The notes beneath the pieces are model-generated. The model did not search any database, was not told where the DNA came from, and was given only the letters and a program-made list of their open reading frames with translations. This document shows, piece after piece, positions 6,071 to 58,708 of a stretch of DNA of 64,000 nt. The DNA comes from a phage. The position numbers were made by a program, and so were the translations under genes. The stretch lies in the sequence record NC_100371.1; one strand, 5' to 3'. Every line of letters starts with the position of its first letter. Position 1 is the first letter of the stretch.

Positions 6071-7093
6071 TTATTCACTTTTCAGAGTTACTTTAACAAC
6101 CAGCTCTGGGCGGGTGTTAACTGCCAGCATGGAAGTTTCAGATTCGATTTTCTGTTCTCTCAGGTAGGCAGAGTGTTTATACCACATATACAGCTCTTGA
6201 GCTGGGGTATTTGCATCTTCCAGAGTGTCAGCCGGAGCAAAGTGCAGCTGGAACATCTGATCGATACCCATAGGCATCAGACGAGCCTCACCGTCCGGAA
6301 TGTTGCCAGAGATGTCTTCGATGAAGGTCATACCCTTGTGTTCAAACACACGGTAAATGCTCTGTTCACCACCTGCACCCAGACGACGACGCAGCGGTTC
6401 CTGAGAAGAGCTGTAGTAGGTGTAAGCCAGCTCTACCAGCGGGTGATGAACCAGTGCTGAGAAGAATTTCGGAGAGCACAGCGCGATGATGTTGTAAGCA
6501 CCAGCGTTGTCACCAGCCTGCAGAGCAATGTGCAGACGTGCATCTTCGATTACTTCCATCGGGTCCTGTGCTGCATTTTTAGGATCGATTTCGATAGATT
6601 TCTGGGAAACGCCCCACAGTTTGTAATAGTCATACTGACAGGTGGTGTCGCCAGGGGCATATGATTTACCCAGAACTGCAGCAAACAGTGCTTTTTCACG
6701 CAGAGTTTCGTGGGTCAGACGGATACGACGAACCACACGGGTAACTACGTCCTGAACAGTTTTCGGTGCATCAGGGGTGAAGTAGCGACGGAAGTTCTGA
6801 ACATCCGCAGCGGTGATGCCTTTATCCAGCGGGAAGAACGGGATGTTCAGGTTTTTGATCTGAGCACGTTCGCTACCAACGTAGTTACGTTCACCACCAC
6901 GGCGACGTGCAGCAATATCACCAACCACTTCATCTACACGTTCAATCTGTGCGATTGTTGAGGTGCCTAGATGAGTTTCAAACAGATCCATACCAGTGAT
7001 CAGTCGGAATTGGCGCGGAACCAGTTCAAGAGTAGCACCTAAATCAACAATACCAAAATCATCTTTACGGGTGTTAGCCATTATTTTCTCCAA
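6071..7093 (-). CDS. major capsid protein (lambda gpE-like)
   Basis: 340-aa ORF following a gpD-like decoration gene and scaffold, strong terminator downstream; size and composition typical of E-family capsid proteins. Confidence 0.75.
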   Translation of the reverse strand: MEKIMANTRKDDFGIVDLGATLELVPRQFRLITGMDLFETHLGTSTIAQIERVDEVVGDIAARRRGGERNYVGSERAQIKNLNIPFFPLDKGITAADVQNFRRYFTPDAPKTVQDVVTRVVRRIRLTHETLREKALFAAVLGKSYAPGDTTCQYDYYKLWGVSQKSIEIDPKNAAQDPMEVIEDARLHIALQAGDNAGAYNIIALCSPKFFSALVHHPLVELAYTYYSSSQEPLRRRLGAGGEQSIYRVFEHKGMTFIEDISGNIPDGEARLMPMGIDQMFQLHFAPADTLEDANTPAQELYMWYKHSAYLREQKIESETSMLAVNTRPELVVKVTLKSE

Positions 7094-7523: not shown

Positions 7524-8504
7524 TTATTTATTGGATTCTTTACGTGCGCGAGCCAGAGCTTTAGCGACGTTTTCAGCAATAATGTCTTCAGCAGATTTAG
7601 CAATGTCGTCCACCACGACATCACCATCTTTACCTTGCTCTGTGGTTGCGAACTCTTCTTTAGCTTTTTCAACTTTAGCTTCCAGTTCAGCAATACGAGC
7701 TTGAGCTTTTTCCAGCAATTCAACAACAGGGGCGTTAGCTTTATCCAGCATGAATTCGACCAGAGATGCGTGGTCTTCTTCAGTGGTGAAGCTTAACGCC
7801 TGAGCTTTTTCCAGCATTTTAGCTTTTTCAACTTCTACCTGAGCCTTGATGATTTCTTCAGCTTTTTCATTGGTAGCTTTCAGTTCTTCGAACTGTTTCA
7901 GCAGGTCCAGGTACTCTTGAGACTTGGTTACGTCTTCCACCGGATTCTCCTCGGTATTTGCGGATTTATCAACATTGTCCACAGCGTCTGTAACAACTTC
8001 TTCTGTGGTTTCCTGTGCCGCTTTAATAAGTTTCCCTTCTTCATCGAAGAGATCAGCGGTCATCTGCTCAAAAACTTGTTGGGTTTTCAGCAGAGTGTAT
8101 TGGTCAACAATACTTAAATCTTTACCTTCTTTAGCAGCTTTGTGAATGGTTACGTTATCACAACGTTCTTCTAACCACTGCACACAAGCCTCTGCATCAG
8201 CCTGTGCCCACTCCCAATCTGGGTGTTCTTTTGCCCAAGCTTCTTCCTCAATCTCGAACCCAAGCAGGTGAGCCAGTGCCTTAGCATCGTCATACCACAT
8301 ATCGAAAAAACGACGCAGGTATTCTTCAAAGCTAAGTTCAACAGTAACTTGGCGAAGAGCCTTAACGATATCCTCTGTTAACTGCTCAGGCTTAAGATCG
8401 CTCTTCATTAAAAGAGATACAGGTCTGTTGTTAGCGCTATAACCTTGCGCCTTATGGCACAGGGCAATCCCCTTCTCTTTAATAGTGATTGTTTTTTCAG
8501 ACAT
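7524..8504 (-). CDS. head scaffolding protein
   Basis: 326-aa highly charged Glu/Lys/Ala-rich ORF with long predicted coiled coils between portal and decoration genes. Confidence 0.55.
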   Translation of the reverse strand: MSEKTITIKEKGIALCHKAQGYSANNRPVSLLMKSDLKPEQLTEDIVKALRQVTVELSFEEYLRRFFDMWYDDAKALAHLLGFEIEEEAWAKEHPDWEWAQADAEACVQWLEERCDNVTIHKAAKEGKDLSIVDQYTLLKTQQVFEQMTADLFDEEGKLIKAAQETTEEVVTDAVDNVDKSANTEENPVEDVTKSQEYLDLLKQFEELKATNEKAEEIIKAQVEVEKAKMLEKAQALSFTTEEDHASLVEFMLDKANAPVVELLEKAQARIAELEAKVEKAKEEFATTEQGKDGDVVVDDIAKSAEDIIAENVAKALARARKESNK

Positions 8505-8935
8505 TATTCATTGCCCTCTTCTACAACACTGATCCCGAAATTTACGTTGGTAATTTCGCCCGTCTCTTCATCAACATTGCCTGTTGCCTGAATGCTTAGG
8601 CCACCAACAATGCCAGCCTTCTTAGCTTCCCATAATTCAGGATTATTGTATTTAACTTTAGCAACCCAAGAGCCAGCCTTGATGACCTGCTCAGTACCAA
8701 TTACTACAACATCAAACTCTTCTTGAATCCACGTCTTTTCAATAGTGAAAGCATCTGTAGAGGTCAAGTGGAAAAGGTTTTCAGAAACTAGGCCTGCGGC
8801 GTATGCTGCGTCCCAATTATCTTTAGCCTTTTTGATGGTGTCTTTACTCATCCACTCACCGTGAGCGTCTTTAGTGTCCGGTTCGTAGATGATTTCGTAG
8901 GAAATCATTTCTTCCTGTGGCATCTTATTCCCCAT
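8504..8935 (-). CDS. head morphogenesis protein (function uncertain)
   Basis: ORF 8504-9076 overlaps the portal gene; internal ATG at 8935 (MGNKMPQEEM...) is the likely start. Confidence 0.4.
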   Translation of the reverse strand: MGNKMPQEEMISYEIIYEPDTKDAHGEWMSKDTIKKAKDNWDAAYAAGLVSENLFHLTSTDAFTIEKTWIQEEFDVVVIGTEQVIKAGSWVAKVKYNNPELWEAKKAGIVGGLSIQATGNVDEETGEITNVNFGISVVEEGNE

Positions 8936-8990
8936 GTGGATTATTTTATCACGCCAAAGGAGGTTTTGCAACCCCCTGTGTTGATAATTT

Positions 8991-10547
8991 TTAATTTTCC
9001 ATGTTGGATATGGAATTATCTCTGGTTGATGACATCTTAGAAGTGCCGTTGCCAGTGGATCCTGCAGCCATTCCATCGCCAGCTCTACTGATGTCCTGGC
9101 CCAAGAGCTTCATTAGCTCTTCCTGATCCATGTCCTCGTCAAATCTTTCATCAAACCCACCTACTTCAAGAATCTTATTAATTACTGCAGGAGTTTTTGG
9201 CAAGTAACCTACAGCACCGATCCTCTGGACAAACTTGGAGAAGCTCTCCATGTCCACCTCTTCAATCAGGCCAGGTTTCAGTTTAGGCATATCATCATCT
9301 TCAAGGATGATACCATTCAATGCCAGAAGCTGTGGAATAAGATCTTTATTGAAGGCCTCAGTGATAATATCTATATCACGCTGAACAAAATGACCATGGA
9401 TAGACTGTTTTGACTCAGACAGAGAGAAGGATCCAACGTTATCGTTACCGAGGTTAATAAAGCCAGCACCGAAACGGTCAAGAATCGCCTTCTTACGGGC
9501 ATCAATCAAATCTTTAGTGGAATACTGCTTACCCATACCGTCAACCCCCTTCAGGGTCATGGAGTAAAGCTCTTTACCAGACTTATCTCTATCAGACGGA
9601 AGTATAAAGAAACTTTGCTCCCCACTATGGGCGTTTGCTGCGTCCAACATAAGATCTGCAACCATTCTCCCTTCCATCGAATTCGGGTCAATGCTGGCCT
9701 TGTTCAAAATATTGGAAGGAATTTTCAGCTCAAGCACACCACCAAGGTCTTTGGAGCAGCCAACAACCTCAAGGTTTTCAATCAAAACTTTCTCACGGAA
9801 AGATCTGTAGCAACCTATCATCGGTGACACACCTGCAGGATTAGATTCTGTTCCTGACAGAGTCATGAGCATAAGCTTTTTAGCAGGGATGAAAATTTCA
9901 GGCTCATTAAAGCCTTTTGAAGGCATTGCAGCGAGAGGTCCAGCCCAGCGTGCATTCTGAGTGTTTAGAAATGCATTAGGTGACTGATAAATACCTGTCA
10001 GTGTTCTGCTATTCTTGTCAAAGACAAACGGCTCTGATCTGGACAAACTGGCCTGTGGTCGGAATGCAATTTTATCAATAAGAAGCATCCCGGCATATTT
10101 ACCTTCTTTCTCTCTGCGGTATACTTTCTCAAACAGTGAAAAACCATACTCGTTAAAGGTAGCTGCGCTTCTTGCAATATCTCGAAGAGTTTGTTGGTTT
10201 GCCAAATTACGCAAAGAATACTCTATAAGCTCGGCGGCTTTCTTAGAGTCTTCACTTTTAACATTATAAAGGATCTTAAAATCATTGAATGCTTTCGTGA
10301 TGAAAACATATTTTGTATCTAAGGCAGTAGCAACTGTGGAATCACATTTCATAGTCTCCACTGTGGCAATCAGCTGAGGCCAACGCAATTCCTCAACCAT
10401 CATAGATTGTGATTCTGCCATAATTTGGGAAAGTGCGCCAGAACCGATCTCACTCATACGAACATTATGAGTTGGTGCGCCTGCGTTCCCAGATTTATTC
10501 ACAGTTTTGGCTGTGGCGTTGTGTTTCCTGCGGTTCTTTTTGGACAC
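8991..10547 (-). CDS. portal protein
   Basis: 518-aa ORF between terminase and head assembly genes; basic N-terminus, acidic C-terminal tail. Confidence 0.7.
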   Translation of the reverse strand: MSKKNRRKHNATAKTVNKSGNAGAPTHNVRMSEIGSGALSQIMAESQSMMVEELRWPQLIATVETMKCDSTVATALDTKYVFITKAFNDFKILYNVKSEDSKKAAELIEYSLRNLANQQTLRDIARSAATFNEYGFSLFEKVYRREKEGKYAGMLLIDKIAFRPQASLSRSEPFVFDKNSRTLTGIYQSPNAFLNTQNARWAGPLAAMPSKGFNEPEIFIPAKKLMLMTLSGTESNPAGVSPMIGCYRSFREKVLIENLEVVGCSKDLGGVLELKIPSNILNKASIDPNSMEGRMVADLMLDAANAHSGEQSFFILPSDRDKSGKELYSMTLKGVDGMGKQYSTKDLIDARKKAILDRFGAGFINLGNDNVGSFSLSESKQSIHGHFVQRDIDIITEAFNKDLIPQLLALNGIILEDDDMPKLKPGLIEEVDMESFSKFVQRIGAVGYLPKTPAVINKILEVGGFDERFDEDMDQEELMKLLGQDISRAGDGMAAGSTGNGTSKMSSTRDNSISNMEN

Positions 10548-10649: not shown

Positions 10650-11741
10650 TTAGATAAAACGCTTGAACATAGAAGGTGATGAGATTGATGGAATCACACA
10701 AGGCAGCGCTACCTCCTCTTTCTCCAGGAAATTAATCGCAGAAGCTACACAGTCGGCCCAGTCGTCTTTTCTGTTAAATGTTGATCTTTCCCCGTTGAAC
10801 TTTTCAAGTTCAGTCAGAAATGCTTCCAGAGTGTCAGGATGGAAACTGGATTTTACAATCCTCACCATTCCTTGTTGGGCAAGATTGGCAAAAGGTGAGA
10901 ACCTTGTCAGTTTAGATTTGTTGGAAGGCATTGGATCTTCTTCAACCCTGAACCCTTCGGCGAGCAAGGATCTGGACGAGGTTAAGAATTCACTCTTACC
11001 TGCCTGACCGGGGTCCACAGAAAATACGATTATGCAATCATCTCCATCAAACTGCGCCTGTTTCCTGATGATCACATCTCGTTCCCCAGCCTTTTTACAG
11101 AACTTACCTTCCAGACCTGTGGAATACCTACCGTCATCCACGTTCTCAGGACAATAATCTCCGGACAGGTAATAAAAGCCGTCGCTATCTTTACTTACCT
11201 TAACACTGGCGGTAAAGTCAGGAAATTTATTACCGGAAGTTCTCTCGGTTCCTGCTTTATCCCATGCCCTGCAAGATACTGATCCAAGAGGTACTCTATC
11301 GGCATCACGAAGGAAAGATCTTTGGAAATAGTTTGCACCCTCAGGTTTGGCAAACCAGTTGCCATGAAGAAGCTGGGCTTTTTCAAGCTCTGGCAGACCT
11401 TCAAGGAAAGCAAGGTATTCTGGGTTGTCTCTCAAGCAGACAGGGTTATCGAAAATTGTTGCTCCTATAAACGAGAATGACAACGGTCTTGGCTTGATCT
11501 CCACACCCAGTCCGTTAACCGTGGTGTATTTCTCTATTAACTCTTCTTTAGAGTCTCCCCAAATAAATTCACCGTCGCGTCGGATAAAATATCTTTTCTT
11601 ACCACATTTCTCCGGATCTGGATACCCTTCATCGTCCAACCACCACCTGACCAGTTTGGCAAGCATGTGTTCTGAGTCGGGGTTACAACTGATAACCATT
11701 CTTGATGGATACTTTGACTGAGATCGCAGACGAGACATCAA
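10650..11741 (-). CDS. terL: terminase large subunit, C-terminal part (exon 2, nuclease domain)
   Basis: Begins ...MVISCNPDSEH (ATPase coupling motif) and continues through a nuclease-like domain; frame is open upstream to about 11774 (TTQFEWEQIDYL). Confidence 0.7.
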   Translation of the reverse strand: MMSRLRSQSKYPSRMVISCNPDSEHMLAKLVRWWLDDEGYPDPEKCGKKRYFIRRDGEFIWGDSKEELIEKYTTVNGLGVEIKPRPLSFSFIGATIFDNPVCLRDNPEYLAFLEGLPELEKAQLLHGNWFAKPEGANYFQRSFLRDADRVPLGSVSCRAWDKAGTERTSGNKFPDFTASVKVSKDSDGFYYLSGDYCPENVDDGRYSTGLEGKFCKKAGERDVIIRKQAQFDGDDCIIVFSVDPGQAGKSEFLTSSRSLLAEGFRVEEDPMPSNKSKLTRFSPFANLAQQGMVRIVKSSFHPDTLEAFLTELEKFNGERSTFNRKDDWADCVASAINFLEKEEVALPCVIPSISSPSMFKRFI

Positions 11742-11774: not shown

Positions 11775-12651
11775 TTATGTTCGGGCAAGGTCGCTAGTCT
11801 TGCCCCGCCATTTTCAGGCAGCTGCATGTCTCCATGCAGACCAGACTATATCTTATGAATGTGCAAATACTCTGCTGCTCTAAGAATGGTTTCCTCATCC
11901 TCTTGGAAGAAACCTAAAGCTCTGTTGCATTTATCACAAAGCAACCCTCTTACAGCACCAGTTTTATGGTCATGATCAACACAAAAGAAATCTCTGTACC
12001 CTTGCGTCCTATACTCATCAAGAGATATTCTACAAATGGCACACTTATGATCTTGATCTGAGAGTAAGCGATAGTATTCATCTTTTGTTATGTGAAATTT
12101 CTTCTCAATCTGATAAAACTTTTCACACATCTTACACCTGTTCGTAACCAGATACACTTTACCATAGTCACGTTTTGTGTAAAAACTATCAGCAAGCATA
12201 CTTTCATGACAAGATTTACATTCAAAAAGCTCACCTTTCTTCAGTAAGTCTTGAATAAAAGATGCTGCATCATCTCTCTTAACCATATTTTTGTTTCTAC
12301 GAGATCCATTCTTCCTGTAGTACATATAGCATTCCTTGCATGTACCGGAGTATCCATCCTTGCTCTTAGATGATAAAAAGAAATCATCAAGAGGTAGAAC
12401 TCTTTGGCAATCCATACATTTTTTAGTATTACACATTCACCCTCCCGTTTCGAATCGCTTGATTCTACGTCTTTCGACTAGTCGTTGAACGTTCATCCTT
12501 TCGGATGCTTCGCTGCGGATTATCTAAATTAACACACTGTTACCATACCTTCGATCTCTCTTCGAAGCCTCTATCATGTTACCATGACAGGTTGGTGGTG
12601 TCAATAATAAAGATTTCCCCGCAATTAGGGAGGTTTTACGAGAGCTACAAA
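11775..12651 (-). mobile_element. putative group I intron (with homing endonuclease ORF) interrupting the terminase large subunit gene
   Basis: About 0.9 kb separates the two TerL parts; exon 1 ends GGU followed by in-frame UAA; contains HNH ORF 11846-12436; boundaries approximate. Confidence 0.5.
11846..12436 (-). CDS. HNH homing endonuclease (Endonuclease VII family)
   Basis: 196 aa; N-terminal Cys-rich zinc finger (CMDCQ...CKEC) and C-terminal CVDHDHKTGAVRGLLCDKCN motif. Confidence 0.75.
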   Translation of the reverse strand: MCNTKKCMDCQRVLPLDDFFLSSKSKDGYSGTCKECYMYYRKNGSRRNKNMVKRDDAASFIQDLLKKGELFECKSCHESMLADSFYTKRDYGKVYLVTNRCKMCEKFYQIEKKFHITKDEYYRLLSDQDHKCAICRISLDEYRTQGYRDFFCVDHDHKTGAVRGLLCDKCNRALGFFQEDEETILRAAEYLHIHKI

Positions 12652-13080
12652 TTAACCCTCATCGAAGCAAACCATGGTGTACTCAAGTCCTTGATGGTTA
12701 AGCTTATCTTGGACATACTCCATGTGGCAGTATTTTACAACAGCTCCTTTTTTGCTCCTGTCCCACTTGCCAGTGCTCGGATCAAACCGTGGAAAAATAA
12801 ACTTATGATCCTTCTCTCTGAACTTTGGTTTAATGTTTTCAGGCAGATCACTGTAAATAGCTACTGCTTTAGGCCATAGCCCACCCTCACCTTCCAACTG
12901 TGGAGTTGTTCTTCGGAACATAACCACAGAGCTGTGTGGGTCATCAATAATTTTAAGCGGCATCAACTGCAGGAGGAACGACTTACCTGACCCAGCCGCA
13001 CCACCAATGACAAGAATGTCTGCATCGTTTTCCAGGATCATCTTCTGCTTTTCAGAACACGGTCCGTAAATCTTAGACAT
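12652..13080 (-). CDS. terL: terminase large subunit, N-terminal ATPase part (exon 1)
   Basis: Walker A GGAAGSGKS, Walker B-like MVCFDEG immediately followed by a stop codon. Confidence 0.75.
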   Translation of the reverse strand: MSKIYGPCSEKQKMILENDADILVIGGAAGSGKSFLLQLMPLKIIDDPHSSVVMFRRTTPQLEGEGGLWPKAVAIYSDLPENIKPKFREKDHKFIFPRFDPSTGKWDRSKKGAVVKYCHMEYVQDKLNHQGLEYTMVCFDEG

Positions 13081-14261: not shown

Positions 14262-14272
14262 TATTTATTATT

Positions 14273-14347: not shown

Positions 14348-14348
14348 A

Positions 14349-14424
14349 TGGTGCTGATGGCAGGACTTGAACCTGCAACCTATTGATTACAAATCAATTG
14401 CACTGCCAATTGTGCTACATCAGC
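14349..14424 (-). tRNA. tRNA-Thr (anticodon UGU)
   Basis: acceptor GCTGATG/CATCAGC, anticodon arm ATTGA-TTTGTAA-TCAAT, T-arm GCAGG-TTCAAGT-CCTGC, CCA encoded. Confidence 0.75.
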
Positions 14425-14428
14425 AAAA

Positions 14429-14527
14429 GGTGCTAGGTGATGGAATCGAACCATCTATGTATTCAACGACTACCTCGTCTATTTTCAGGATTAAAAATCC
14501 TCGCCCTTGCCAAAGGGCTTACCTAGC
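14429..14527 (-). tRNA. atypical tRNA-like gene (99 nt; anticodon loop reads UUU; possibly degenerate or insert-containing)
   Basis: perfect acceptor GCTAGGT/ACCTAGC, D-arm GCCC-TTTGGCAA-GGGC, canonical T-arm GATGG-TTCGATT-CCATC, but about 30 nt between anticodon arm and T-arm. Confidence 0.4.
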
Positions 14528-14625
14528 TCAGCATGTTGACCATGTTGCTAGTCGGCGATGACGACTGTAACATTTGATAATCCGGTTCTGCTTCCGGCTT
14601 TCGCTTAATTACAAGGTCAACAATA

Positions 14626-14716
14626 TGGCAGAGGATAATGGAATCGAACCATCATCGAGTCATCCTCAACGGGACGGTTTTCAAGACCGCTTGAGCACCA
14701 TTGCTCCCTACCCTCT
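14626..14716 (-). tRNA. tRNA-Ser (anticodon UGA), type II
   Basis: acceptor AGAGGGT/ATCCTCT, anticodon arm GCGGT-CTTGAAA-ACCGT, long variable arm TTGAG-GATGA-CTCGA, T-loop GGTTCGATTCC, CCA encoded. Confidence 0.7.
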
Positions 14717-14830
14717 TTTATAAACAATACTGATAATGACACTGATTTTCGAGCAGTTAGTGACTAGTATAAACGACGATAAATATCAATGCCATTATCT
14801 GTATGATTTATGCATTTAAAAATATAAATT

Positions 14831-14918
14831 TGGTGGTGAGTGATGGAGTCGAACCACCCGAATCGCAATGATAACAGATTTACAGTCTGCCCCGCTACCC
14901 CTACGGAATTAACTCACC
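14831..14918 (-). tRNA. tRNA-Tyr (anticodon GUA), type II
   Basis: acceptor GGTGAGT/ACTCACC, anticodon arm GCAGA-CTGTAAA-TCTGT, long variable arm, T-loop TTCGACT, CCA encoded. Confidence 0.7.
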
Positions 14919-15048
14919 TAAATACTAATATTTAAATTCTTTTTAAAATAGCTAGTGTTCTAACCACTAACTATGAGGTATCGGTAAAGTGGTTACCGCC
15001 ACTTGCCGAAGATTTACTCTGCTAAAGTAAGCTACATTAAAAAGAACT

Positions 15049-15123
15049 TGGCACCCCGTACTGGACTCGAACCAGTGTCAACGGCTTAGAAGGCCGCTGC
15101 TTTATCCACTAAGCTAACAGGGC
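15049..15123 (-). tRNA. tRNA-Arg (anticodon UCU)
   Basis: acceptor GCCCTGT/ACGGGGT, anticodon arm GCGGC-CTTCTAA-GCCGT, T-arm ACTGG-TTCGAGT-CCAGT, CCA encoded. Confidence 0.7.
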
Positions 15124-41183: not shown

Positions 41184-41530
41184 CACAAGAGCGTATTGAT
41201 TTAGCCAGTAAGTTTGTAGATCTCATTTTGCCACGGTTGGTTACTCAACATGCAGACGCTATTTCTACTAATCTTGATGGCTTACGCCTAATGCTGAACC
41301 GAACAGATGACCCACGTATTCGGGCCGATTTAGAGGCCTCTGCCAACAAACTGGAAAAGTTCTTGCAAGTAGACACGCAAGAAGCCTTGCACAAGATTAT
41401 GGTGGAAGGTTTCTCTAAAGAATTCACCGTTAAAGAGCTTAAGGAGCTGATCCGCCAAGAAGAGATGAATATCCGAGTTCAGGCTGTTGCAAGCAGCATG
41501 GAAGCGGCTATTGAAAAACTGTTGCAGTAA
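41180..41530 (+). CDS. hypothetical protein
   Basis: 116-aa ORF, GTG start, helical composition. Confidence 0.4.
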   Translation: MTQERIDLASKFVDLILPRLVTQHADAISTNLDGLRLMLNRTDDPRIRADLEASANKLEKFLQVDTQEALHKIMVEGFSKEFTVKELKELIRQEEMNIRVQAVASSMEAAIEKLLQ

Positions 41531-41568
41531 AAGTCCTTGACACATCTCAATCTGAAAGGAGTCCCAAC

Positions 41569-42357
41569 ATGGGTCGAGCTAAAGAAACAAAACGCATGCG
41601 TGATGAAGCCAGAGAGGCTCGCAAATCTGATCGCCTGCGTAAGGCTGCTGAGAAATTTGCTGACGAACGAGAGCACACAGCTCCAGCTCTCCGACCAATG
41701 AACAAAAAGCAGCAAAAGTATCTTGATTATCTAGGATCGCGTAAGATTATTATTGTAAACGGTGTGTTTGGATCCGGTAAGACATTCATGGCATCCGCAT
41801 ATGCAGGTGATCTTTTGCGTAAGAACGAGATTGATAAGATCATTGTTGCACGCCCTTACGTTCAGACAGGAAAGACTTCAGGGTTTAAACCTGGAAACGC
41901 AATGCAGAAACTGTGGCCCTATCTCCGAAGCATGATGGACACGATTTGTCGTCGTGTTGGCAAAGGTGCTTTTGCCGCAATGCTGGGAGATGGTCAGAAC
42001 AGTCGTATCGAGATCTGTGAAGTTGAAAGCATTCGTGGTCGTAGTTTCGATGAGCGGTGCTTTGTCCTAATTGACGAGGCACAGCAAACTAACCCTGAAG
42101 AAATGTTGTCAATTATCACAAGGATCTCTGATCAGGCCACACTTGTAATCATGGGTGATAATAGCCAACGTGACATCCCTGGTAAGTCTGGACTTGCATG
42201 GGTAACGGATTTCTTTACTCGTCATCCAGATCCTGAGGTTGGGATGATTAGCTTTGATAGCCCAGATGATGTCGTTCGTTCCGGGTTGGGTCGTCAGATT
42301 GCACTCAATCTTATCGAGGATCGTGCAAATCATATTTGGACCCCTGTTTCCGAGTAA
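41569..42357 (+). CDS. phoH: PhoH-like ATPase
   Basis: Walker A NGVFGSGKTF, Walker B FVLIDEAQQ, PhoH-type size (262 aa). Confidence 0.85.
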   Translation: MGRAKETKRMRDEAREARKSDRLRKAAEKFADEREHTAPALRPMNKKQQKYLDYLGSRKIIIVNGVFGSGKTFMASAYAGDLLRKNEIDKIIVARPYVQTGKTSGFKPGNAMQKLWPYLRSMMDTICRRVGKGAFAAMLGDGQNSRIEICEVESIRGRSFDERCFVLIDEAQQTNPEEMLSIITRISDQATLVIMGDNSQRDIPGKSGLAWVTDFFTRHPDPEVGMISFDSPDDVVRSGLGRQIALNLIEDRANHIWTPVSE

Positions 42358-42363
42358 TACAGA

Positions 42364-42392
42364 AGGGTGGTTATTCCACCCTTAAATATCTA
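42364..42392 (+). terminator. terminator-like hairpin after phoH
   Basis: GGGTGG-ttatt-CCACCC followed by TTAAATATCT. Confidence 0.45.
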
Positions 42393-42401
42393 AAACAATT
42401 A

Positions 42402-42430
42402 TTGACAAACAGATAAGTTTTAGGTATTAT
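42402..42430 (+). promoter_or_regulatory. sigma70-like promoter (TTGACA-N17-TATTAT)
   Basis: TTGACA at 42402-42407, TATTAT at 42425-42430. Confidence 0.55.
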
Positions 42431-42455
42431 CGAACAAAACAAGGAGAATGACAGT

Positions 42456-42767
42456 ATGGCTACAATACAAGAGAGACTGAATAAGATATACTGCCTATTT
42501 GTCTATAACGGTGAGACAATTTTGGCAAACAAAGGATACAAGAATGTGTGGATTAAGGACAGCGGTGGTAACATAATCAACTTGGCGCTACTACGTGAGC
42601 GAAGACACCGATTCTTCACTGAGTCCCGTGTTATTGAAAGCAACACATTTTACAGAACAGGGGATAAAGTAATTGTTGACAATGACACGTGGTATGTGGT
42701 AGACTGGCAATCGTTGACCTGTGATGCTTCTGACAATTGTAAGTATTCCATGGTAATTGCTAAATAA
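42456..42767 (+). CDS. hypothetical protein
   Basis: 103-aa ORF with AAGGAGAA RBS. Confidence 0.4.
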   Translation: MATIQERLNKIYCLFVYNGETILANKGYKNVWIKDSGGNIINLALLRERRHRFFTESRVIESNTFYRTGDKVIVDNDTWYVVDWQSLTCDASDNCKYSMVIAK

Positions 42768-42828
42768 AGGCAAATGAGAATCAGGTTTAAATAGATCGCT
42801 TTTAACTTTCCAACATTAAGGACCTCAC

Positions 42829-43878
42829 ATGAATTTAACACCTCGCAGCACCATGGTACACGGCATGAAAGAAAAACAGAACGGCTTCGAACCGATGAGT
42901 AATAAAATGTTTGGTATGCCTGGTGGTATTATGGAAACATACAGCTACCCAACGCCAGTTGTTGACCACGTGCTTTATATTGACGATCTTGATGATTTGC
43001 AGGATCATATGTCCCGTTTGCAAACAATTCGTATGGCACAGCCGGAAGAAAGTATCCGTGTAATTGTTAACAGCCCTGGTGGTTGCGTCCACATTGCCAT
43101 GGCGTATTTGCAGGCATTCCGCGAGTCTCAGGCAAGCGTTGTTGTACACGCTGAAGGAATGTGCTGCTCAGCAGGAACAATCTTATGGCTGGGTTGCAAA
43201 GAACGAACTGTGGCTCCGGACACAGAGTTTATGTTCCACTACTATCAAGGTGGCACCTATGGCAACGGTGTGAACATGAATACTCAGGTCAACTACTGGA
43301 AGAAACGTTTTGAACGCCTGATCGAAAAATACTACGGTGGGGTTCTGACAGAAGATGAGATCGCATCCATCACGGCTGGTGGGGAAGTGTGGTTGGATGG
43401 AGAAGAGCTGGCAGCTCGAACTGGTGCTATCATTCTGGACGATGAAAACATTCAGCGTATTCAGAATGGGCAGAAACCGAAAAAGCTTTTGGCAAAAAGT
43501 GATGAAGAAGGTGTGCTAGGCGAAGCAGGCCTGCCAGAGATTCACCAATGCACATCTCTGGACGAGCTGGTTCACGCTGTTGAGTCTGCAAAAGCAAATG
43601 GTCTGAAAGGTGATGTTCACACTGTGTTCCTGAATCTGCAGATGGAGAGTGGTGAGACCGTTAAGATTGCACTGGGTGAGATTACCTCGGAAGATCTGCA
43701 GCGATTCTCTGTGGTAGAGCTTCAGGACATTTTGTCCCAATTGAAAACCACCCTGAACGGAGGTGAAGAAGTTCAGGTTAAAGATAAGACCCGCAAGCGT
43801 CTGGTGGACAATATTATTAAAACAGCAAAAGAGCTCAATGAAAAAATCCTGGGCGCAGGAATTATCGAAGAAGCTTAA
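42829..43878 (+). CDS. ClpP/S14-like serine peptidase with about 150-aa C-terminal extension
   Basis: VNSPGG and Ser nucleophile context MCCSAGT, His in FMFHYYQG; acidic helical C-terminal region. Confidence 0.55.
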   Translation: MNLTPRSTMVHGMKEKQNGFEPMSNKMFGMPGGIMETYSYPTPVVDHVLYIDDLDDLQDHMSRLQTIRMAQPEESIRVIVNSPGGCVHIAMAYLQAFRESQASVVVHAEGMCCSAGTILWLGCKERTVAPDTEFMFHYYQGGTYGNGVNMNTQVNYWKKRFERLIEKYYGGVLTEDEIASITAGGEVWLDGEELAARTGAIILDDENIQRIQNGQKPKKLLAKSDEEGVLGEAGLPEIHQCTSLDELVHAVESAKANGLKGDVHTVFLNLQMESGETVKIALGEITSEDLQRFSVVELQDILSQLKTTLNGGEEVQVKDKTRKRLVDNIIKTAKELNEKILGAGIIEEA

Positions 43879-43891
43879 ACATTAATCTTAA

Positions 43892-43914
43892 AGCCCTCTT
43901 CGGAGGGCTTTTAT
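43892..43914 (+). terminator. Rho-independent terminator
   Basis: GCCCTC-ttcg-GAGGGC followed by TTTTAT. Confidence 0.65.
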
Positions 43915-43929
43915 GATCTGGAGATTTGC

Positions 43930-44463
43930 ATGACTTGTGCTAGAAAACCTGACGAACAACGTAACGCCTATGATGAATATGTGACACCAGAGTGGTGTGC
44001 AGAAGGGTTGTATGACCTCATTCCGTTCCCAGAAGATTGGACCTATTTGGAGCCTTGCAGGAATAGCGCCTCAGGTGTGTTCTACTCCCGTATGCCGTTA
44101 GGATCTGCATGGGGAGAAATCCAAGAAGGTGTTGACTATCTGAATACAGAATACAACCATGTTGACTGTATTATCACCAACCCGCCGTACAGCCTGGCTC
44201 GTGAGTTTGTGGACAAGGCGTTGAAAGATGCCGACGTAGTTATTATGCTTTTGCGTCTTAATTTTCTGGAAAGCAAGGCCAGATTTGAATGGTGGCTTGA
44301 TAATGCCCCTACCACTGTGATCACAATATCTAAGCGTCCATCATTCCAATCGAATGGCAGAACTGACGGGCAAGCATATGCATATTTTGTGTGGGACAAG
44401 AAGAACCGTTTAGACCTACCACCATTTATGTGGTTGGCACCTCCGGAGGCAGACTTGAAATGA
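43930..44463 (+). CDS. phage-type DNA N6-adenine methyltransferase (Dam-like, orphan)
   Basis: 177 aa with IITNPPYS (NPPY) catalytic motif. Confidence 0.6.
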   Translation: MTCARKPDEQRNAYDEYVTPEWCAEGLYDLIPFPEDWTYLEPCRNSASGVFYSRMPLGSAWGEIQEGVDYLNTEYNHVDCIITNPPYSLAREFVDKALKDADVVIMLLRLNFLESKARFEWWLDNAPTTVITISKRPSFQSNGRTDGQAYAYFVWDKKNRLDLPPFMWLAPPEADLK

Positions 44464-44744
44464 AAATGAGTGCTAAGGACAAGTTGCACCAGTTAGCGCT
44501 AAAACGTCCTGTAACTCTCCCTGACGAGCTTAACTCCATTTATGATGCGATTGTAGGGGAGATACAAAATAAGGCGTTAGCAGGCTTTCTGGGATGCGGA
44601 TTTTCGATAAATCTTCCATCACACCTCTCAGACTACTTCCCACACATCGTTGGGGATTTGAGGGCAGGAGGTCTGCAGGTGGATGTTGTTGGCATCTCCC
44701 CGGAGAAAAATAACACAGTTGCCTACTTGACAGTGACCTGGTAG
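44460..44744 (+). CDS. hypothetical protein
   Basis: ATG 44460 overlaps upstream stop (ATGA); MKMSAKDKLHQ... Confidence 0.35.
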   Translation: MKMSAKDKLHQLALKRPVTLPDELNSIYDAIVGEIQNKALAGFLGCGFSINLPSHLSDYFPHIVGDLRAGGLQVDVVGISPEKNNTVAYLTVTW

Positions 44745-44779
44745 TAGTGTATTTTGTTTTCAACAAGAGGGGGTCATCT

Positions 44780-45019
44780 ATGTATAAGTCATTTTCAATT
44801 TACTCAAGACAGGCAAAACACTACACAGAGATTCTGATCACTCAGAAAAAATCTGTGGAAGGTGAGTGGGAATATCATCATAAAATGTTGCGTCCAGACT
44901 GGGTTTTTGATAGGCTTATTGCTATGATCCCTCTTGGAGAAGTATACCCTCTGACAGGTCATAGGGATGCTTGGGATTTAATTGACTATATAGATTCATT
45001 TAAGGAGCCTAGATTATGA
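44780..45019 (+). CDS. hypothetical protein
   Basis: ATG 44780 with AGAGGGGG RBS (MYKSFSIYSRQ...). Confidence 0.35.
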   Translation: MYKSFSIYSRQAKHYTEILITQKKSVEGEWEYHHKMLRPDWVFDRLIAMIPLGEVYPLTGHRDAWDLIDYIDSFKEPRL

Positions 45020-45414
45020 AGATTGAGATTACTGAAGAAGGTAAGAAAGTCTCTGGTAACTATGCAACAGTTATCCGTGATGTAATGTTCGAAGTCACTA
45101 AGATTGGCACATCCAAGGTTGGTCAAACGGTGAGTGTGCAAGGTAATATCACCTCAGGAGAGAAGATATTCATCGTGATAAAAGGCCAGGATCCTGTAGA
45201 AGGGACAGTTGGACGTGGTGGATACTTGTGTATCTCTGAAGAGCCTCGCATGCTAGTTGCTGATAACTCCACAGGTAAAAAGCGAGTATGTAACACGGAC
45301 GAGGTGATGATTATCTATCCAGTCAACCCGGATGATCCGGCAACATGGATTGTGGGAAATGAAATCTTCTCTTTAGAAGAGTTATCCTTCCCAGCTCCGC
45401 GATCTGTTCAGTAA
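45016..45414 (+). CDS. hypothetical protein
   Basis: 132-aa ORF, AAGGAG RBS. Confidence 0.4.
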   Translation: MKIEITEEGKKVSGNYATVIRDVMFEVTKIGTSKVGQTVSVQGNITSGEKIFIVIKGQDPVEGTVGRGGYLCISEEPRMLVADNSTGKKRVCNTDEVMIIYPVNPDDPATWIVGNEIFSLEELSFPAPRSVQ

Positions 45415-45453
45415 TAATTTATCTTACCAGGGACGGTAAAAGCAGGAGGTAGC

Positions 45454-45687
45454 ATGAAAGTTAAATTTCTTACAGATTTAGGGTACCCTTCCTTGGTTGA
45501 CTGCGTTGGTAAAATTGTGGAAGCAAAACGGCTATCTGCAAACGATAATGTTGTCATGGTTAAGGGAAAAGATTTACTAGCTGCAGGTGCAGAGTCTGGC
45601 AGGATCTCTCCTGACTATACGTATTACCTGTCTTTAAGTAATCTACCAGAACGAGGCGGCAAAGGCCTTGAAGTTGTGGAGGAGTGA
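45454..45687 (+). CDS. small acidic protein, paralogous family member
   Basis: MKVKFL... N-terminus, DLLAAGA motif, C-terminal LEVVEE; shared with ORFs at 49111 and 49325. Confidence 0.5.
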   Translation: MKVKFLTDLGYPSLVDCVGKIVEAKRLSANDNVVMVKGKDLLAAGAESGRISPDYTYYLSLSNLPERGGKGLEVVEE

Positions 45688-56015: not shown

Positions 56016-56231
56016 ATGAAAATAGAGATATTTGGTGGGGCTGACAACACTCGTGGCCTGATTTACCTTGAATTTGATGAATCTTATCTGCCAGAGGTGT
56101 TAAATATAGATGCTGTTGCGGAAGCCCTTGATGTAGACCCTAAAGATCTCTACTCTGGTGCTGAGATTGATGGTTGGGAAGAGACTCTGAACATTGATTT
56201 CAGTGAAGTAGTGGGTGAACCTTTGGACTGA
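56016..56231 (+). CDS. hypothetical protein
   Basis: ORF 55950-56231; likely start at ATG 56016 after GGAGA (MKIEIFGG...); upstream 66 nt resemble the 5' end of gene 13869-14138. Confidence 0.4.
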   Translation: MKIEIFGGADNTRGLIYLEFDESYLPEVLNIDAVAEALDVDPKDLYSGAEIDGWEETLNIDFSEVVGEPLD

Positions 56232-56594
56232 CACACAAGTCTGCTTTGCAGGTTTAGCTGCCCAGCTAAGGTTCTGGAGGCACCTATAACATCTTTCAAC
56301 TAAATTTCCTACCAACACAGTTACTTACCCACCACACATAACTGTTTGCTTGTTTAGTGAGCAGTCATCCCTTGACATTCTTGCCTATCTTGATAAAATT
56401 AAGTTCTTCTCTTTTCTTTTACCGAGTAATTCGGGTTTTCTGTTCTCTTCGGTTTGAAGGGGTATGGAGATACACCTGAGTGAACAGGGTGAACAACCGA
56501 ACATTTGGCTATGGCATTAGCATGGCGAAGCGGACGGGTGACGAAAGAGGGGCCGGAGGACACCAGTCACTGCCATATAGTATATGGGTGATAA

Positions 56595-57135
56595 CCTGAA
56601 GAGTCTGAATAAGTGTTTAAGTACCAGTCAGAGGAAAAGGTGAATGGTAGCCGAAGGGGGAGAGGGGGTTTCTTATATCTTTAATTTGTATATTATGTAT
56701 ACACTTGTAAACCAATTCAATTAGGATCTGTTTACCACACAAAGTGGATGGAGACAAATATCACCTATTAAACTTGAATTATTTATAGAAAATACCACAA
56801 CACCTCTTAAGTATTTGATTTTACACACAAATCTTACAAATATCCTACCTCCATATTTAACATACTTGTAACATATTCCATATCCTACCTGCCTGATCAA
56901 TTTACTCCCACCACATCCCCACATTTTCCCTGTCTGTACTACCCCTGCCCCGCCGGGAGTCCCGTCATATCTGGCTTTCCAGCAAATATCGCACCCACAA
57001 ATATCATCACCTGAAGAGGGTTTCATCCCATAATACCTGCCTTACCTGAAGAGCGCTTCATACACCACGTAAATTTTTTAATTGACCCCTCCCCGCCGCC
57101 GGAGAGGTTGGCTTTTCCCACACAGGCCTGAAGAG
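56595..57135. repeat. dispersed CCTGAAGAG motif (4 copies) within non-coding region
   Basis: Copies at 56595, 57010, 57045, 57127, two of them in tandem units ACCTGAAGAG-N3-TTCAT. Confidence 0.6.
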
Positions 57136-57760
57136 TCAGCCAGAAATATCTGAACAGGTCCAGTTATACCCCGATTTTGTGCCTGTCCTACAGGAGTGCT
57201 GCCCTGTCAGGAGCCGGTAGCGACTGGAGTGCTGCCAGGCGGACGGAATGGGAATACTTCTCATTTTTATAATAATTCTCAAATATCGAGGCAGTGAGGC
57301 AAATTAATAGGCCAGGCCGTTCACACAGTGGCACAACATTTGCAATCTATCTTGTGGGAGTGAATGAGAATACCTATCATTGTGAGAATGGTTATCATTA
57401 CGGGCAATTTAACATAATACCCATTATGCGCACCACTGGCGATACATACAGGGATTGATAACATGGGTTACTGTTTACGCATATAACAATTATATTTCTT
57501 ACTATTTGTGTGGGATATAGTTAGCAACCAATAGATTAGATATTGACCTGCAGACTTCTGACCGTCCAGACGTCTAAACGCCCACACAGCAAGGATTATA
57601 CATACACTCCTGCATGTAAACAGGACCGCAAAAATGCTACCATACCAGTTTGTAAATTTTTCATGCAGCACTTGACAAAGAGGAGAAAAACTTGTCTGAC
57701 ACACTGGACACAATGTCCCACAATATGACACAATAACGGCTGTTACTATTCCATATCTCA

Positions 57761-57815
57761 CTGTTTACGCATAGACTGTTTACGCCTGAATAGTTTACGC
57801 AAAAACTGTTTACAC
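57761..57815. repeat. tandem array of four CTGTTTACGC-like 10-mers with 15-bp periodicity
   Basis: Copies at 57761, 57776, 57791 (tagtttacgc), 57806 (ctgtttacac); further isolated copies at 57471 and 58217. Confidence 0.65.
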
Positions 57816-57827
57816 AGAGATGATAAG

Positions 57828-58059
57828 CCATGCCATTCGTTTGCATGAAAACAATTAACAAGCTAACAATCTATGACATAATATAAAAGCAGGGCAACTA
57901 TTAGAAGATCTATAGTTGCCTTGCTTGTTATGTCATGATTAACTAAATACAAGGCAACTATGATCTGAATAATAGATTGCAGACAAACTATCACGGGGGT
58001 GATTGTTACTGCTTTTATATTATGTCGCGACTCCGTCGCGCCATGCCATTCGTTTGCAT
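57828..58059. repeat. pair of 19-bp direct repeats (CCATGCCATTCGTTTGCAT) flanking a palindrome-rich about 190-bp segment
   Basis: Repeats at 57828-57846 and 58041-58059; inside, inverted copies of GGCAACTAT/ATAGTTGCC and GACATAATATAAAAGCAG/CTGCTTTTATATTATGTC. Confidence 0.6.
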
Positions 58060-58682
58060 AGTTGCCTTATTGTTACAGGTAAAACAATTACATTATTAAT
58101 TATTTCTTATCTTTCTCTTAGTCATCTAATGATTCCAGTCAGTATAGTAATGTACAGTAAACATTAGACGACTAAAGATTTCTCTGTGTATAATAACTTA
58201 TCGTGACAATTTCGAACTGTTTACGAAAAATGTTGACACCTGAGCTGATTTATGTTATGCAGTTTACACGAATAATTATTTTATGCAGGTATTGACTATT
58301 CCGTTATTCTGTGGTTGGAATAAATACTTTGCAGACTATAGAATGGCGTGCGTACGTGAATTCTGAGATCTGGCGGCTATAGTTATACTCGATTTTTCGC
58401 GTAGAACACGCTTTCGATGCTGTGTAAGTGTATGACTTATAAAGATTTTTAGTTGTTGACAAGATATTGGAGATGTGCATCAGGTTAAAATTTGTGCAAT
58501 AGCGGCATTACGTGCACTTTTGGGAGAGAAAACGGGTAAAAATGGCCCTGCTACCACACAATGAAAGATTATGCAATAGTTATTTTCCATGTATATTTGT
58601 ACAGTATGTGGGATTGATGGCTAGTCAATTATTCCACTTGCCAGGTAGGGCCGTTTATGGTAGGAGAAGAGCAGACAAAAAG

Positions 58683-58708
58683 AAAGGGGCCTTTAAGCCC
58701 CTTGATAA
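58683..58708 (-). terminator. Rho-independent terminator ending the right-hand minus-strand gene block
   Basis: minus-strand GGGGC-ttaaag-GCCCC followed by TTTCTTTTTGTCT. Confidence 0.6.

What the first reader, a model, noticed from the sequence alone, without database searches (positions are those of the whole stretch)
42829..43878. ClpP-like serine peptidase with a long C-terminal extension, encoded among early genes rather than in the head module
The N-terminal 200 aa carry ClpP/S49-type features (VNSPGG, Ser in MCCSAGT, His in FMFHYYQG) followed by a 150-aa acidic helical extension. Phage ClpP-fold proteases are normally prohead proteases sited next to portal and capsid genes; this one is 30 kb away on the opposite strand. 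Either head maturation uses a remotely encoded protease, or this protease targets host or early proteins.
Basis: partly seen in the sequence, partly recalled or inferred. Interest (0 to 1): 0.5.

Follow-up and report, generated by a model that had tools for sequence, protein, structure and literature searches.

The report
Non-structural ClpP-like protease of rV5-like phage
This is the already-annotated ClpP-like serine protease of rV5-type E. coli phages (rV5 gp122); it is very probably not the capsid-maturation protease, because the head gene cluster has its own protease, and it lacks the surface that normal ClpP uses to dock its ATPase partners, so its real job in the infected cell is still unknown.

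Summary
The ORF (42829..43878, +, 349 aa) is real and carries a genuine ClpP fold (Pfam CLP_protease above cutoff; the top 50 PDB fold matches are all ClpP). The window is a Vequintavirus, 99.8% identical to phage NHEP1, and the gene is the ortholog of rV5 gp122, annotated "ClpP protease subunit" since 2013, so it is already known. The "remote prohead protease" reading is disfavoured. The head module encodes its own XkdF-type protease (8504..9076, -) and a scaffold, syntenic with ICP1's capsid operon. The rV5 capsid protein keeps its N-terminus. The ClpP-like protein was not found in rV5 or CB7 virions. The gene sits behind a sigma70-type promoter among nucleotide-metabolism genes. Related ClpP-like genes occur outside head modules in ICP1, KVP40, Pakpunaviruses and T5-like phages. 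The "ATP-dependent" label is also doubtful. Ser114 and His137 are invariant, but the ClpX/ClpA docking-pocket residues are replaced by invariant polar or charged ones, and the protein scores far below curated ClpP cutoffs. The C-terminal extension is a disordered linker plus a small alpha/beta domain found only in this family. A PhoH-like ATPase gene lies just upstream in 8 of 15 sampled lineages. Function remains untested.

The parts
42402..42430 (+). sigma70-type promoter-like site (TTGACA-N17-TATTAT) upstream of the 103-aa ORF and the ClpP-like gene
   Evidence: 11/12 consensus match; sequence read. It corresponds to promoter P121 (90197..90242) listed in Table S4 of the rV5 paper, PMC3606486. 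This is a prediction only, with no transcript data.
42456..42767 (+). 103-aa ORF of unknown function (rV5 gp121 ortholog), first gene after the promoter
   Evidence: ORF; phrog_5456, unknown function, E 1.5e-36; no NCBIfam or PADLOC hit.
42829..43878 (+). ClpP-like serine peptidase gene, 349 aa (rV5 gp122 ortholog)
42829..42963 (+). N-terminal region (residues 1-45). It is variable up to about residue 22, then carries a conserved FG...YP motif. It is not alignable to the ClpP axial loop or helix A, and is low-confidence in the model
   Evidence: pLDDT 30-35 for residues 1-43; F28, G29, Y40, P41 invariant; alignment to Ec/Bs ClpP.
42964..43473 (+). ClpP-fold core (residues 46-215), including the handle helix 147-169
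   Evidence: pLDDT ~85-94. Foldseek against PDB: top 50 all ClpP, TM relative to target 0.58-0.73. phmmer against PDB ClpPs, E 5e-8.
43168..43170 (+). Ser114 codon, aligned to ClpP catalytic Ser97
   Evidence: Invariant in the 21-sequence family and in 14 diverse phage ClpP-like proteins.
43237..43239 (+). His137 codon, aligned to ClpP catalytic His122
   Evidence: Invariant.
43384..43386 (+). Glu186 codon, at the position of ClpP catalytic Asp171
   Evidence: E in 4/20 and Q in 16/20 family members. D in ICP1 and KVP40, E in PBES02. D or E in all the other, more distant phage ClpP-like proteins aligned.
43474..43548 (+). linker (residues ~216-240), mostly predicted disordered; variable in length and sequence between relatives
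   Evidence: pLDDT <50 for 222-240; alignment columns 230-280 are gap-rich.
43549..43857 (+). family-private C-terminal alpha/beta domain (residues 241-343): helix, beta-hairpin, then a helix-loop-helix with F293, E297, L298, R322 and L325 conserved
41569..42357 (+). PhoH-like P-loop ATPase gene, same strand, one gene upstream; this linkage recurs in other phages
   Evidence: phrog_170, E 3.8e-75. Linkage seen.
43930..44463 (+). DNA methyltransferase-like gene immediately downstream; no terminator-like site between the two genes
   Evidence: phrog_799, E 5.1e-67; terminator scan; same order in PBES02.
8504..9076 (-). context, not part of the ClpP-like unit: XkdF-type (Peptidase_S78_2) protease between portal and scaffold, the likely real prohead protease
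   Evidence: Pfam PF14550 at 64.6 bits against cutoff 24. 41% identical to ICP1 'capsid protease' gp125, with the DAHG His and GLSI Ser conserved. The CB7 ortholog was detected in virions. Curated BASEL records call it 'prohead protease'.
7524..8504 (-). context: scaffold protein gene of the head module
   Evidence: 26% identity over ~300 aa, E 3e-10, to ICP1 gp124, which was shown experimentally to be a scaffold in PMC10945586.

Best explanation
The gene encodes a diverged, non-structural ClpP-fold serine peptidase, the ortholog of rV5 gp122. It is transcribed by host RNA polymerase from a sigma70-type promoter together with nucleotide-metabolism and replication genes, and it acts in the cytoplasm of the infected cell rather than inside the procapsid. 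Catalysis uses Ser114 and His137, assisted by Glu186 in this phage. The preserved handle helix suggests that it still forms ClpP-like rings. It has lost the hydrophobic pockets and the N-terminal gate that canonical ClpP uses to couple to ClpX/ClpA, so it probably does not work as the host-ATPase-dependent 'ATP-dependent Clp protease subunit' it is annotated as. Its private C-terminal domain, tethered by a flexible linker, is the likeliest element for recruiting substrates or partners. Shown here: the fold, the conserved Ser and His, the altered pocket residues, the genomic context, and a separate head protease and scaffold. Inferred: expression timing, oligomeric state, independence from ClpX/ClpA, and the role of the C-terminal domain. 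Unknown: the substrates.
For: ClpP fold. Ser114 and His137 are invariant across the family and across distant phage homologs. The docking-pocket positions Y60, F82, I90, M92, F112 and L48 of E. coli ClpP are R77, E99, H107, E109, T127 and Q65 here, each 20/20 in the family, and sensor Arg170 is Gly. It scores 32.4 bits against a cutoff of 308.6 for the TIGR00493 clpP equivalog. Not the head protease: the head module has an XkdF-type protease above the Pfam cutoff plus a scaffold, in the same gene order as, and homologous to, ICP1's capsid operon. The CB7 virion proteome contains that small protease but no ClpP-like protein. The molecular weight of rV5 gp122 is absent from the 19-locus rV5 virion MS file. 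rV5 MCP peptides start at residue 6, so no propeptide is removed. The C-terminal domain shows no similarity to the scaffold. Timing: a sigma70-like promoter at 42402-42430, equivalent to rV5 P121. rV5 places gene 122 in transcription unit 82-163, while late genes are 27-66. Exact copies of the rV5 late motif occur only in the structural module. In ICP1 the gp176-gp211 block peaks at 12 min with nucleotide-metabolism genes, while the capsid operon with protease gp125 is late. Homologs lie outside head modules in KVP40, JG004, UAVern, KIL4, Sugarland, AAS21, K412 and others.
Against: There are no transcript, protein or activity data for any Vequintavirus ClpP-like protein. Absence from virions is weak evidence, because prohead proteases often leave or self-degrade, and the rV5 MS run was shallow. 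The best curated family hits are phage head-maturation ClpP-related models (NF045542 at 61.3 bits, below its cutoff of 120; PHROGs 1684 and 94), and protease-scaffold fusions with C-terminal extensions are common. The pocket mapping rests on a sequence alignment at about 20% identity, although it is ungapped between the SPGG and Ser motifs, and on a monomer model. The third triad residue is Gln in most relatives. The ICP1 timing statement covers a gene range, not gp211 individually, and the supplement search found no per-gene entry.
Confidence: 0.6

Rival explanations
1. It is a head-maturation (prohead) protease encoded away from the head module, or a second capsid protease, and its C-terminal domain targets it into the procapsid as in protease-scaffold fusions.
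For: The highest-scoring curated families are ClpP-related head-maturation proteases (NF045542 at 61.3 bits; NF045540; PHROGs 1684, 94, 2976 and 133). It has a C-terminal extension ending in helices. Prohead proteases are often missing from mature virions.
Against: All those scores are below the curated cutoffs. The head module already has an XkdF-type protease and a scaffold, homologous to and in the same gene order as ICP1's capsid operon. The CB7 virion MS sees that protease and not the ClpP-like protein. The MCP keeps its N-terminus. The C-terminal domain is unrelated to the scaffold. The promoter is sigma70-type with no late motif. Homologs coexist with unrelated prohead proteases, for example in T4-like KVP40 (that T4-like phages use a gp21-type protease is from general knowledge).
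Confidence: 0.12
2. It is a canonical ClpP subunit, as annotated, that forms tetradecamers and is driven by the host ClpX or ClpA unfoldases, redirecting host ATP-dependent proteolysis.
For: Genuine ClpP fold with the handle region; Ser and His conserved; this is the database annotation in more than 100 genomes.
Against: Seven of the nine docking-pocket positions checked are changed to polar, charged or small residues, six of them invariant in the family. The N-terminal loop and helix A are not conserved, and sensor Arg170 is Gly. It scores 32-40 bits against cutoffs of 228-309 for the ClpP models. Identity to E. coli ClpP is about 18%.
Confidence: 0.1
3. It works with the neighbouring phage PhoH-like ATPase as a phage-specific ATPase-peptidase pair.
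For: PhoH lies within about 3 kb upstream on the same strand in 8 of 15 sampled lineages. In UAVern and KIL4 the two genes overlap by 4 and 8 nt. The peptidase lacks the canonical ATPase-docking pocket but has an invariant charged patch at that position.
Against: PhoH is not adjacent in 7 of 15 lineages (KVP40, JG004, Roomu-2 and four Demerecviridae). The intervening genes vary. The linkage may be inherited synteny, since ICP1 and this phage also share head-module order. PhoH-type ATPases are not known protein unfoldases (general knowledge).
Confidence: 0.08
4. It is a catalytically dead ClpP-like scaffold or decoy, for example one that poisons host ClpP or sequesters a host factor.
For: The third triad residue is Gln in 16/20 relatives, and the oligomerisation-sensor residues are lost.
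Against: Ser114, His137 and the oxyanion-region GG motif (G84, G85) are invariant over very divergent sequences, which is the pattern expected for an active serine peptidase.
Confidence: 0.05

Closest known systems
rV5 gp122 and its orthologs in Vequintavirinae (PHROG 5410, 'ATP-dependent protease')
   Same: The same gene: 349 aa and the same neighbours (gp120 PhoH, gp121, gp122). It is annotated in over 100 genomes that are 92-99.8% identical to the window.
   Different: Nothing material. Existing records carry only a homology-based name. No functional study was found in the searched library.
Bacterial ClpP (MEROPS S14; E. coli ClpP, PDB 1TYF/1YG6)
   Same: Same fold, including the handle helix. 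The catalytic Ser and His are aligned and conserved.
   Different: About 18% identity. Asp171 is replaced by Glu or Gln. The hydrophobic IGF/LGF docking pocket is replaced by invariant polar and charged residues. The N-terminal gate is not conserved. There is an extra C-terminal domain. It scores far below the curated ClpP cutoffs.
Non-structural ClpP-like proteins of other large virulent phages (ICP1 gp211, KVP40 ClpP, Pakpunavirus JG004 gp042, UAVern gp123, KIL4 gp0031, Sugarland gp045)
   Same: 24-37% identity in the core. They share the Ser motif context (for example AEG-x-x-CSAGT in KVP40). They are located among replication and nucleotide-metabolism genes, and PhoH lies upstream in several. 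In ICP1 the gene block peaks mid-infection.
   Different: Sizes range from 182 to 326 aa. Most lack a C-terminal domain. The ICP1 extension is not detectably homologous, and KVP40 has only a charged low-complexity tail.
ClpP-related phage head-maturation proteases (NCBIfam NF045542; for example gene 4 of Gordonia phage Blino)
   Same: ClpP fold in a phage. This is the best-scoring curated family, and such proteases often carry C-terminal scaffold or targeting extensions.
   Different: It scores below the family cutoff (61.3 against 120). It is not in the head module, is not behind a late promoter, and coexists with a different head protease.
XkdF-type prohead protease (Pfam Peptidase_S78_2), present in this same window at 8504..9076
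   Same: Both are phage-encoded serine-protease-like proteins of this genome.
   Different: It has an unrelated fold family and sits between the portal and scaffold genes. It is homologous to ICP1 capsid protease gp125, and its CB7 ortholog was detected in virions. It, not the ClpP-like protein, fits the prohead-protease role.

Membership tests
ClpP superfamily domain (Pfam PF00574 CLP_protease) | Profile score above the Pfam gathering cutoff | tested here: met
   48.8 bits against 20.2, residues 59-169.
ClpP superfamily domain (Pfam PF00574 CLP_protease) | ClpP alpha/beta fold with handle helix | tested here: met
   AF2 core pLDDT ~90. The top 50 Foldseek PDB hits are all ClpP, TM relative to target 0.58-0.73.
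Canonical ATP-dependent ClpP (TIGR00493 / MEROPS S14.001) | Score above the curated equivalog cutoff | tested here: not met
   32.4 bits against 308.6. The other ClpP models give 20-40 bits against cutoffs of 228-361.
Canonical ATP-dependent ClpP (TIGR00493 / MEROPS S14.001) | Ser-His-Asp catalytic triad | tested here: inconclusive
   Ser114 and His137 are invariant. The Asp position is Glu186 here and Gln in 16/20 relatives.
Canonical ATP-dependent ClpP (TIGR00493 / MEROPS S14.001) | Hydrophobic pocket for the IGF/LGF loops of ClpX/ClpA (E. coli Y60, Y62, F82, I90, M92, F112, L114, L189; residue list from general knowledge) | tested here: not met
   The corresponding residues are R77, I79, E99, H107, E109, T127, A129 and I202. 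R, E, H, E and T are each 20/20 in the family. This is based on sequence alignment only.
Canonical ATP-dependent ClpP (TIGR00493 / MEROPS S14.001) | N-terminal axial loop and helix A that gate the pore | tested here: not met
   No alignable counterpart was found, and residues 1-43 have pLDDT 30-35.
Canonical ATP-dependent ClpP (TIGR00493 / MEROPS S14.001) | Tetradecameric barrel and functional coupling to an AAA+ unfoldase | not testable with these tools
   Only monomer prediction was available, and no biochemical data were found.
ClpP-related head-maturation protease (NCBIfam NF045542) | Score above the curated cutoff | tested here: not met
   61.3 bits against 120.
ClpP-related head-maturation protease (NCBIfam NF045542) | Encoded in the head module next to the portal, scaffold and capsid genes | tested here: not met
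   It lies about 33 kb away on the other strand. That slot is occupied by an XkdF-type protease.
ClpP-related head-maturation protease (NCBIfam NF045542) | Late expression and presence in proheads; cleavage of capsid or scaffold proteins | tested here: inconclusive
   It has a sigma70-type promoter and no late motif. It was not detected in rV5 or CB7 virions. The MCP N-terminus is intact. No prohead or transcript data exist.
Peptidase S49 (SppA / lambda gpC type) | Peptidase_S49 profile match and a Ser-Lys dyad | tested here: not met
   No PF01343 hit at E<=1. There are only weak SDH_protease and NfeD hits below their cutoffs.
Vequintavirinae ClpP-like family with the private C-terminal domain (PHROG 5410) | Full-length match that includes the C-terminal domain | tested here: met
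   E 1.9e-154 over residues 24-344. The C-terminal profile recovers only family members. The PBES02 C-terminal domain is homologous.

The most novel reading that the evidence does not exclude
The ClpP-like peptidase has swapped partners. It may no longer dock host ClpX/ClpA and may instead work with the phage's own PhoH-like P-loop ATPase encoded just upstream, possibly using the invariant charged patch that replaces the IGF pocket and/or the private C-terminal domain. That would form a previously unrecognised phage ATPase-peptidase machine, and would give the widespread but functionally obscure phage phoH gene a role.
Probability: 0.07. Interest if true: 0.75.

Novelty: already known. Interest (0 to 1): 0.3.

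Why it matters
As a gene it is ordinary. It has been annotated in rV5 since 2013 and now appears in over a hundred near-identical genomes. Three points are still worth knowing. First, the common labels 'ATP-dependent Clp protease subunit' and, in PHROG-based pipelines, 'head maturation protease' are probably both misleading for this family. Second, the real prohead protease of these phages is the small XkdF-type ORF, which several pipelines mis-call 'DNA methyltransferase'. Third, a broad set of large virulent phages carries a conserved, apparently active ClpP-fold peptidase of unknown function among their replication genes, often next to phoH. Finding its substrates could reveal a proteolytic step in host takeover, but nothing here shows that yet.

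Tried and rejected
1. Adding E. coli ClpP to the family alignment with mafft --keeplength gave a broken alignment. It was replaced by an L-INS-i alignment of the cores.

2. Literature searches for phage-encoded ClpP and for Vequintavirinae transcriptomics found no functional study. The ICP1 supplement has no per-gene entry retrievable for gp211.

4. The C-terminal domain as a scaffold-like capsid-targeting domain: hhalign against the phage's scaffold gives 0.1% probability. Rejected at the sequence level.

5. Homology of the ICP1 gp211 extension to this domain: 0.3% probability. Rejected.

6. Defence or anti-defence family membership: PADLOC gives only a non-significant hit.

It was replaced by manual sampling of 15 lineages, which is not a statistical test.

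8. S49/SppA membership: no profile hit.

Full report
**What the window is.**
The region 41500-45500 is 99.8% identical to Escherichia phage NHEP1 and 92-99% identical to over 100 Vequintavirus genomes, including FV3, DrSchubert and other rV5-like phages. The target ORF corresponds to rV5 gp122, which has the same 349 aa, a mass of 38.5 kDa and pI 5.0. It is listed as 'ClpP (ATP-dependent) protease subunit' in Table S3 of the rV5 paper, with Vibrio phage ICP1 as the best hit (PMC3606486). The feature is therefore already annotated. The question is what it really is.

**Observation check.**
- The ORF 42829..43878 (+) exists and has an AAGGA ribosome-binding site 6 nt upstream.
- Pfam CLP_protease matches residues 59-169 above the gathering cutoff, 48.8 against 20.2 bits. 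PHROG 5410 matches full length at E 1.9e-154.
- phmmer against PDB sequences finds only ClpPs, best E 5e-8.
- An AlphaFold2 model built on 21 homologs gives a confident core (residues 46-215, pLDDT about 90). Its top 50 Foldseek hits in the PDB are all ClpP (TM relative to target 0.58-0.73), and the match includes the long handle helix.
No S49 profile matches.
- The extension is about 145 aa and only mildly acidic (pI 5.05). It is predicted as a disordered linker (222-240) plus a small alpha/beta domain at 241-343: one helix, a beta-hairpin and three further helices.

**Is it the prohead protease?**
The head module lies on the minus strand. It comprises TerL (split by an HNH ORF), the portal at 8991..10547, a 190-aa ORF at 8504..9076, an acidic 326-aa ORF at 7524..8504, the decoration protein and a lambda-E-type MCP at 6071..7093.

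- The 190-aa ORF matches Pfam Peptidase_S78_2 (XkdF-type phage serine protease) at 64.6 bits against a cutoff of 24.
- It is 41% identical to ICP1 gp125, annotated 'capsid protease'. The DAHG histidine and the GLSI serine are conserved between the two; these are my candidate catalytic residues by analogy, and they have not been assayed.
- ICP1's operon has the same gene order: TerL, portal, gp126, protease gp125, scaffold gp124, decoration gp123, coat gp122.
- The window's 326-aa ORF is homologous to ICP1 gp124 (E 3e-10). gp124 was shown experimentally to be a scaffold (PMC10945586).
- Curated BASEL records call the Vequintavirus ORF 'prohead protease'. Relatives SSBI34 and CR9 are annotated likewise (PMC8879037).
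- In the Certrevirus CB7, virion MS found the 21-kDa head-module protease and its scaffold-like neighbour at low coverage. None of the 26 virion proteins can be the ~35-kDa ClpP-like protein (PMC7344957).
- The rV5 virion MS lists 19 loci without gp122.
- rV5 MCP peptides begin at residue 6, so the capsid protein is not N-terminally trimmed.
- The C-terminal domain of the ClpP-like protein has no similarity to the scaffold.

Together these results make a remote prohead protease unlikely. Absence from mature virions is weak evidence on its own.

**Expression context.**
- A near-consensus sigma70-type promoter (TTGACA-N17-TATTAT) lies at 42402-42430, upstream of a 103-aa ORF and the target. It is the same element as promoter P121 in the rV5 paper.
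- The rV5 authors place gene 122 in transcription unit 82-163, while the late genes are 27-66.
- Their T4-late-like motif TGGTAAAATA occurs exactly only at 898 and 4420 (minus strand), inside the structural module.
- In ICP1, RNA-seq showed the capsid operon (including protease gp125) to be late. [quoted passage not shown]
- No Vequintavirus transcriptome was found, so the timing here is inferred.

**A wider class.**
A tblastn of the core against 50,697 phage records hits 888 records. Beyond Vequintavirinae, the relatives at 24-37% identity fall in several groups:
- ICP1 gp211, 326 aa.
- Certrevirus PBES02, 307 aa, lying between PhoH and a methyltransferase as in this window.
- KVP40 clpP, between frd and uvsX.
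- Pakpunavirus JG004.
- UAVern, KIL4 and Roomu-2.
- Vibrio phage K412.
- T5-like Demerecviridae, where the gene follows a dNMP kinase.

All 13 inspected neighbourhoods are replication, nucleotide-metabolism or lysis regions, not head modules. Records annotated as true head-maturation proteases (Gordonia, Arthrobacter and Bacteroides phages) appear only at the weak end of the list.

**Is it a canonical ClpP?**
- Ser97 and His122 map to the invariant Ser114 and His137.
- Asp171 maps to Glu186 here. This position is Gln in 16/20 family members and Asp or Glu in the more distant phage homologs.
- The residues that form the hydrophobic IGF/LGF docking pocket in E. coli ClpP (list from general knowledge) map as follows: Y60 to R77, Y62 to I79, F82 to E99, I90 to H107, M92 to E109, F112 to T127, L114 to A129, L48 to Q65.
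- R, E, H, E, T and Q are each invariant in the family.
- The oligomerisation-sensor Arg170 is Gly.
- The N-terminal loop and helix A have no counterpart.
- NCBIfam scores are 32.4 bits for TIGR00493 clpP (cutoff 308.6) and 61.3 bits for the ClpP-related head-maturation model NF045542 (cutoff 120), so the protein is below threshold for both curated families.

I conclude that the fold and the nucleophile machinery are kept, but the features that make ClpP 'ATP-dependent' are not. This conclusion rests on sequence alignment and a monomer model.

**The C-terminal domain.**
- F293, E297 and R322 are invariant, and L298 and L325 nearly so.
- An exhaustive profile search of 1.84 billion representative proteins found only 9 hits. 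The significant ones are family members with the domain at the same position.
- PBES02 carries a homologous domain (hhalign 85%, E 6e-6). ICP1 does not.
- Foldseek against viral models gives one significant hit, a 303-aa protein that is probably a family member.
- The domain is conserved and private, and its function is unknown. A substrate- or partner-recruiting role is my inference.

**Side observation.**
A PhoH-like ATPase gene lies upstream on the same strand in the window, in ICP1, PBES02, K412, UAVern and KIL4, and in two divergent metagenomic family members. That is 8 of 15 sampled lineages. In UAVern and KIL4 the two genes overlap by 4 and 8 nt. The linkage could be inherited synteny, because ICP1 and this phage also share head-module order. 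A functional link is the most novel reading not excluded, and I give it a low probability.

**Verdict.**
The remote prohead-protease idea is disfavoured. The 'ATP-dependent ClpP' label is probably wrong in mechanism. The best-supported description is a non-structural, probably active ClpP-fold peptidase of unknown substrate, expressed with the replication genes. Interest is modest.

Noticed in passing
window 41569-43878; also L003, L005, L007, L010, L011, L016, L017: A PhoH-like ATPase gene lies upstream of the ClpP-like gene on the same strand in 8 of 15 sampled phage lineages. In Pseudomonas phages UAVern and KIL4 the two genes overlap by 4 and 8 nt. It is not linked in KVP40, JG004, Roomu-2 or four T5-like Demerecviridae.
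   Followed up: partly
window 8504-9076 (-): The XkdF-type prohead protease ORF is labelled 'DNA methyltransferase' in RefSeq FV3 and in several PHROG-annotated genomes. The PHROG hit (phrog_1530) covers only profile positions 218-373 of 379, so the label appears to come from a fusion family and is probably an annotation artefact.
   Followed up: partly
window ~56200-58700: A gene-poor stretch sits at the strand and GC-skew switch. It is unannotated in DrSchubert and appears to correspond to the 'non-coding' box in the rV5 paper's map. It contains iteron-like 15-nt tandem repeats (GTTTACGC..., 57753-57813, with further copies at 57463 and 58209), a perfect 18-nt inverted repeat (57875-57892 / 58009-58026) and a perfect 20-nt direct repeat (57827 / 58040). 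There is no Rfam match. It is a candidate replication origin or regulatory region.
   Followed up: no
window 14185-15123 (-): A tRNA cluster (Pro, Met, Thr, Ser, Arg, plus an Rfam-only tRNA hit at 14834-14918) includes a 99-nt tRNA-like gene at 14429-14527. ARAGORN assigns it a four-base anticodon (atcc), and Rfam scores it just above the tRNA threshold (37.5 bits).
   Followed up: no
window 10650-13080 (-): The large terminase gene is split into two ORFs (12652..13080 and 10650..11741), with an HNH endonuclease ORF (11846..12436) between them. This is consistent with the intron in the terminase gene described for rV5.
   Followed up: no
GenBank records MG065658, MG065661, MG065676, MG065647 and others (hits H25, H81, H83, H87): About 18-23 records named 'Campylobacter phage' (host listed as C. 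jejuni) are 96-100% identical at the protein level to this E. coli Vequintavirus. They look like mislabelled or contaminant sequences.
   Followed up: no
window 42829-43878, residues R77, E99, H107, E109, T127, Q65: The positions that form the hydrophobic ATPase-docking pocket in ClpP are occupied by a polar and charged set (Arg, Glu, His, Glu, Thr, Gln) that is invariant across the family. This suggests a conserved new interface or a metal or ligand site rather than simple decay.
   Followed up: partly
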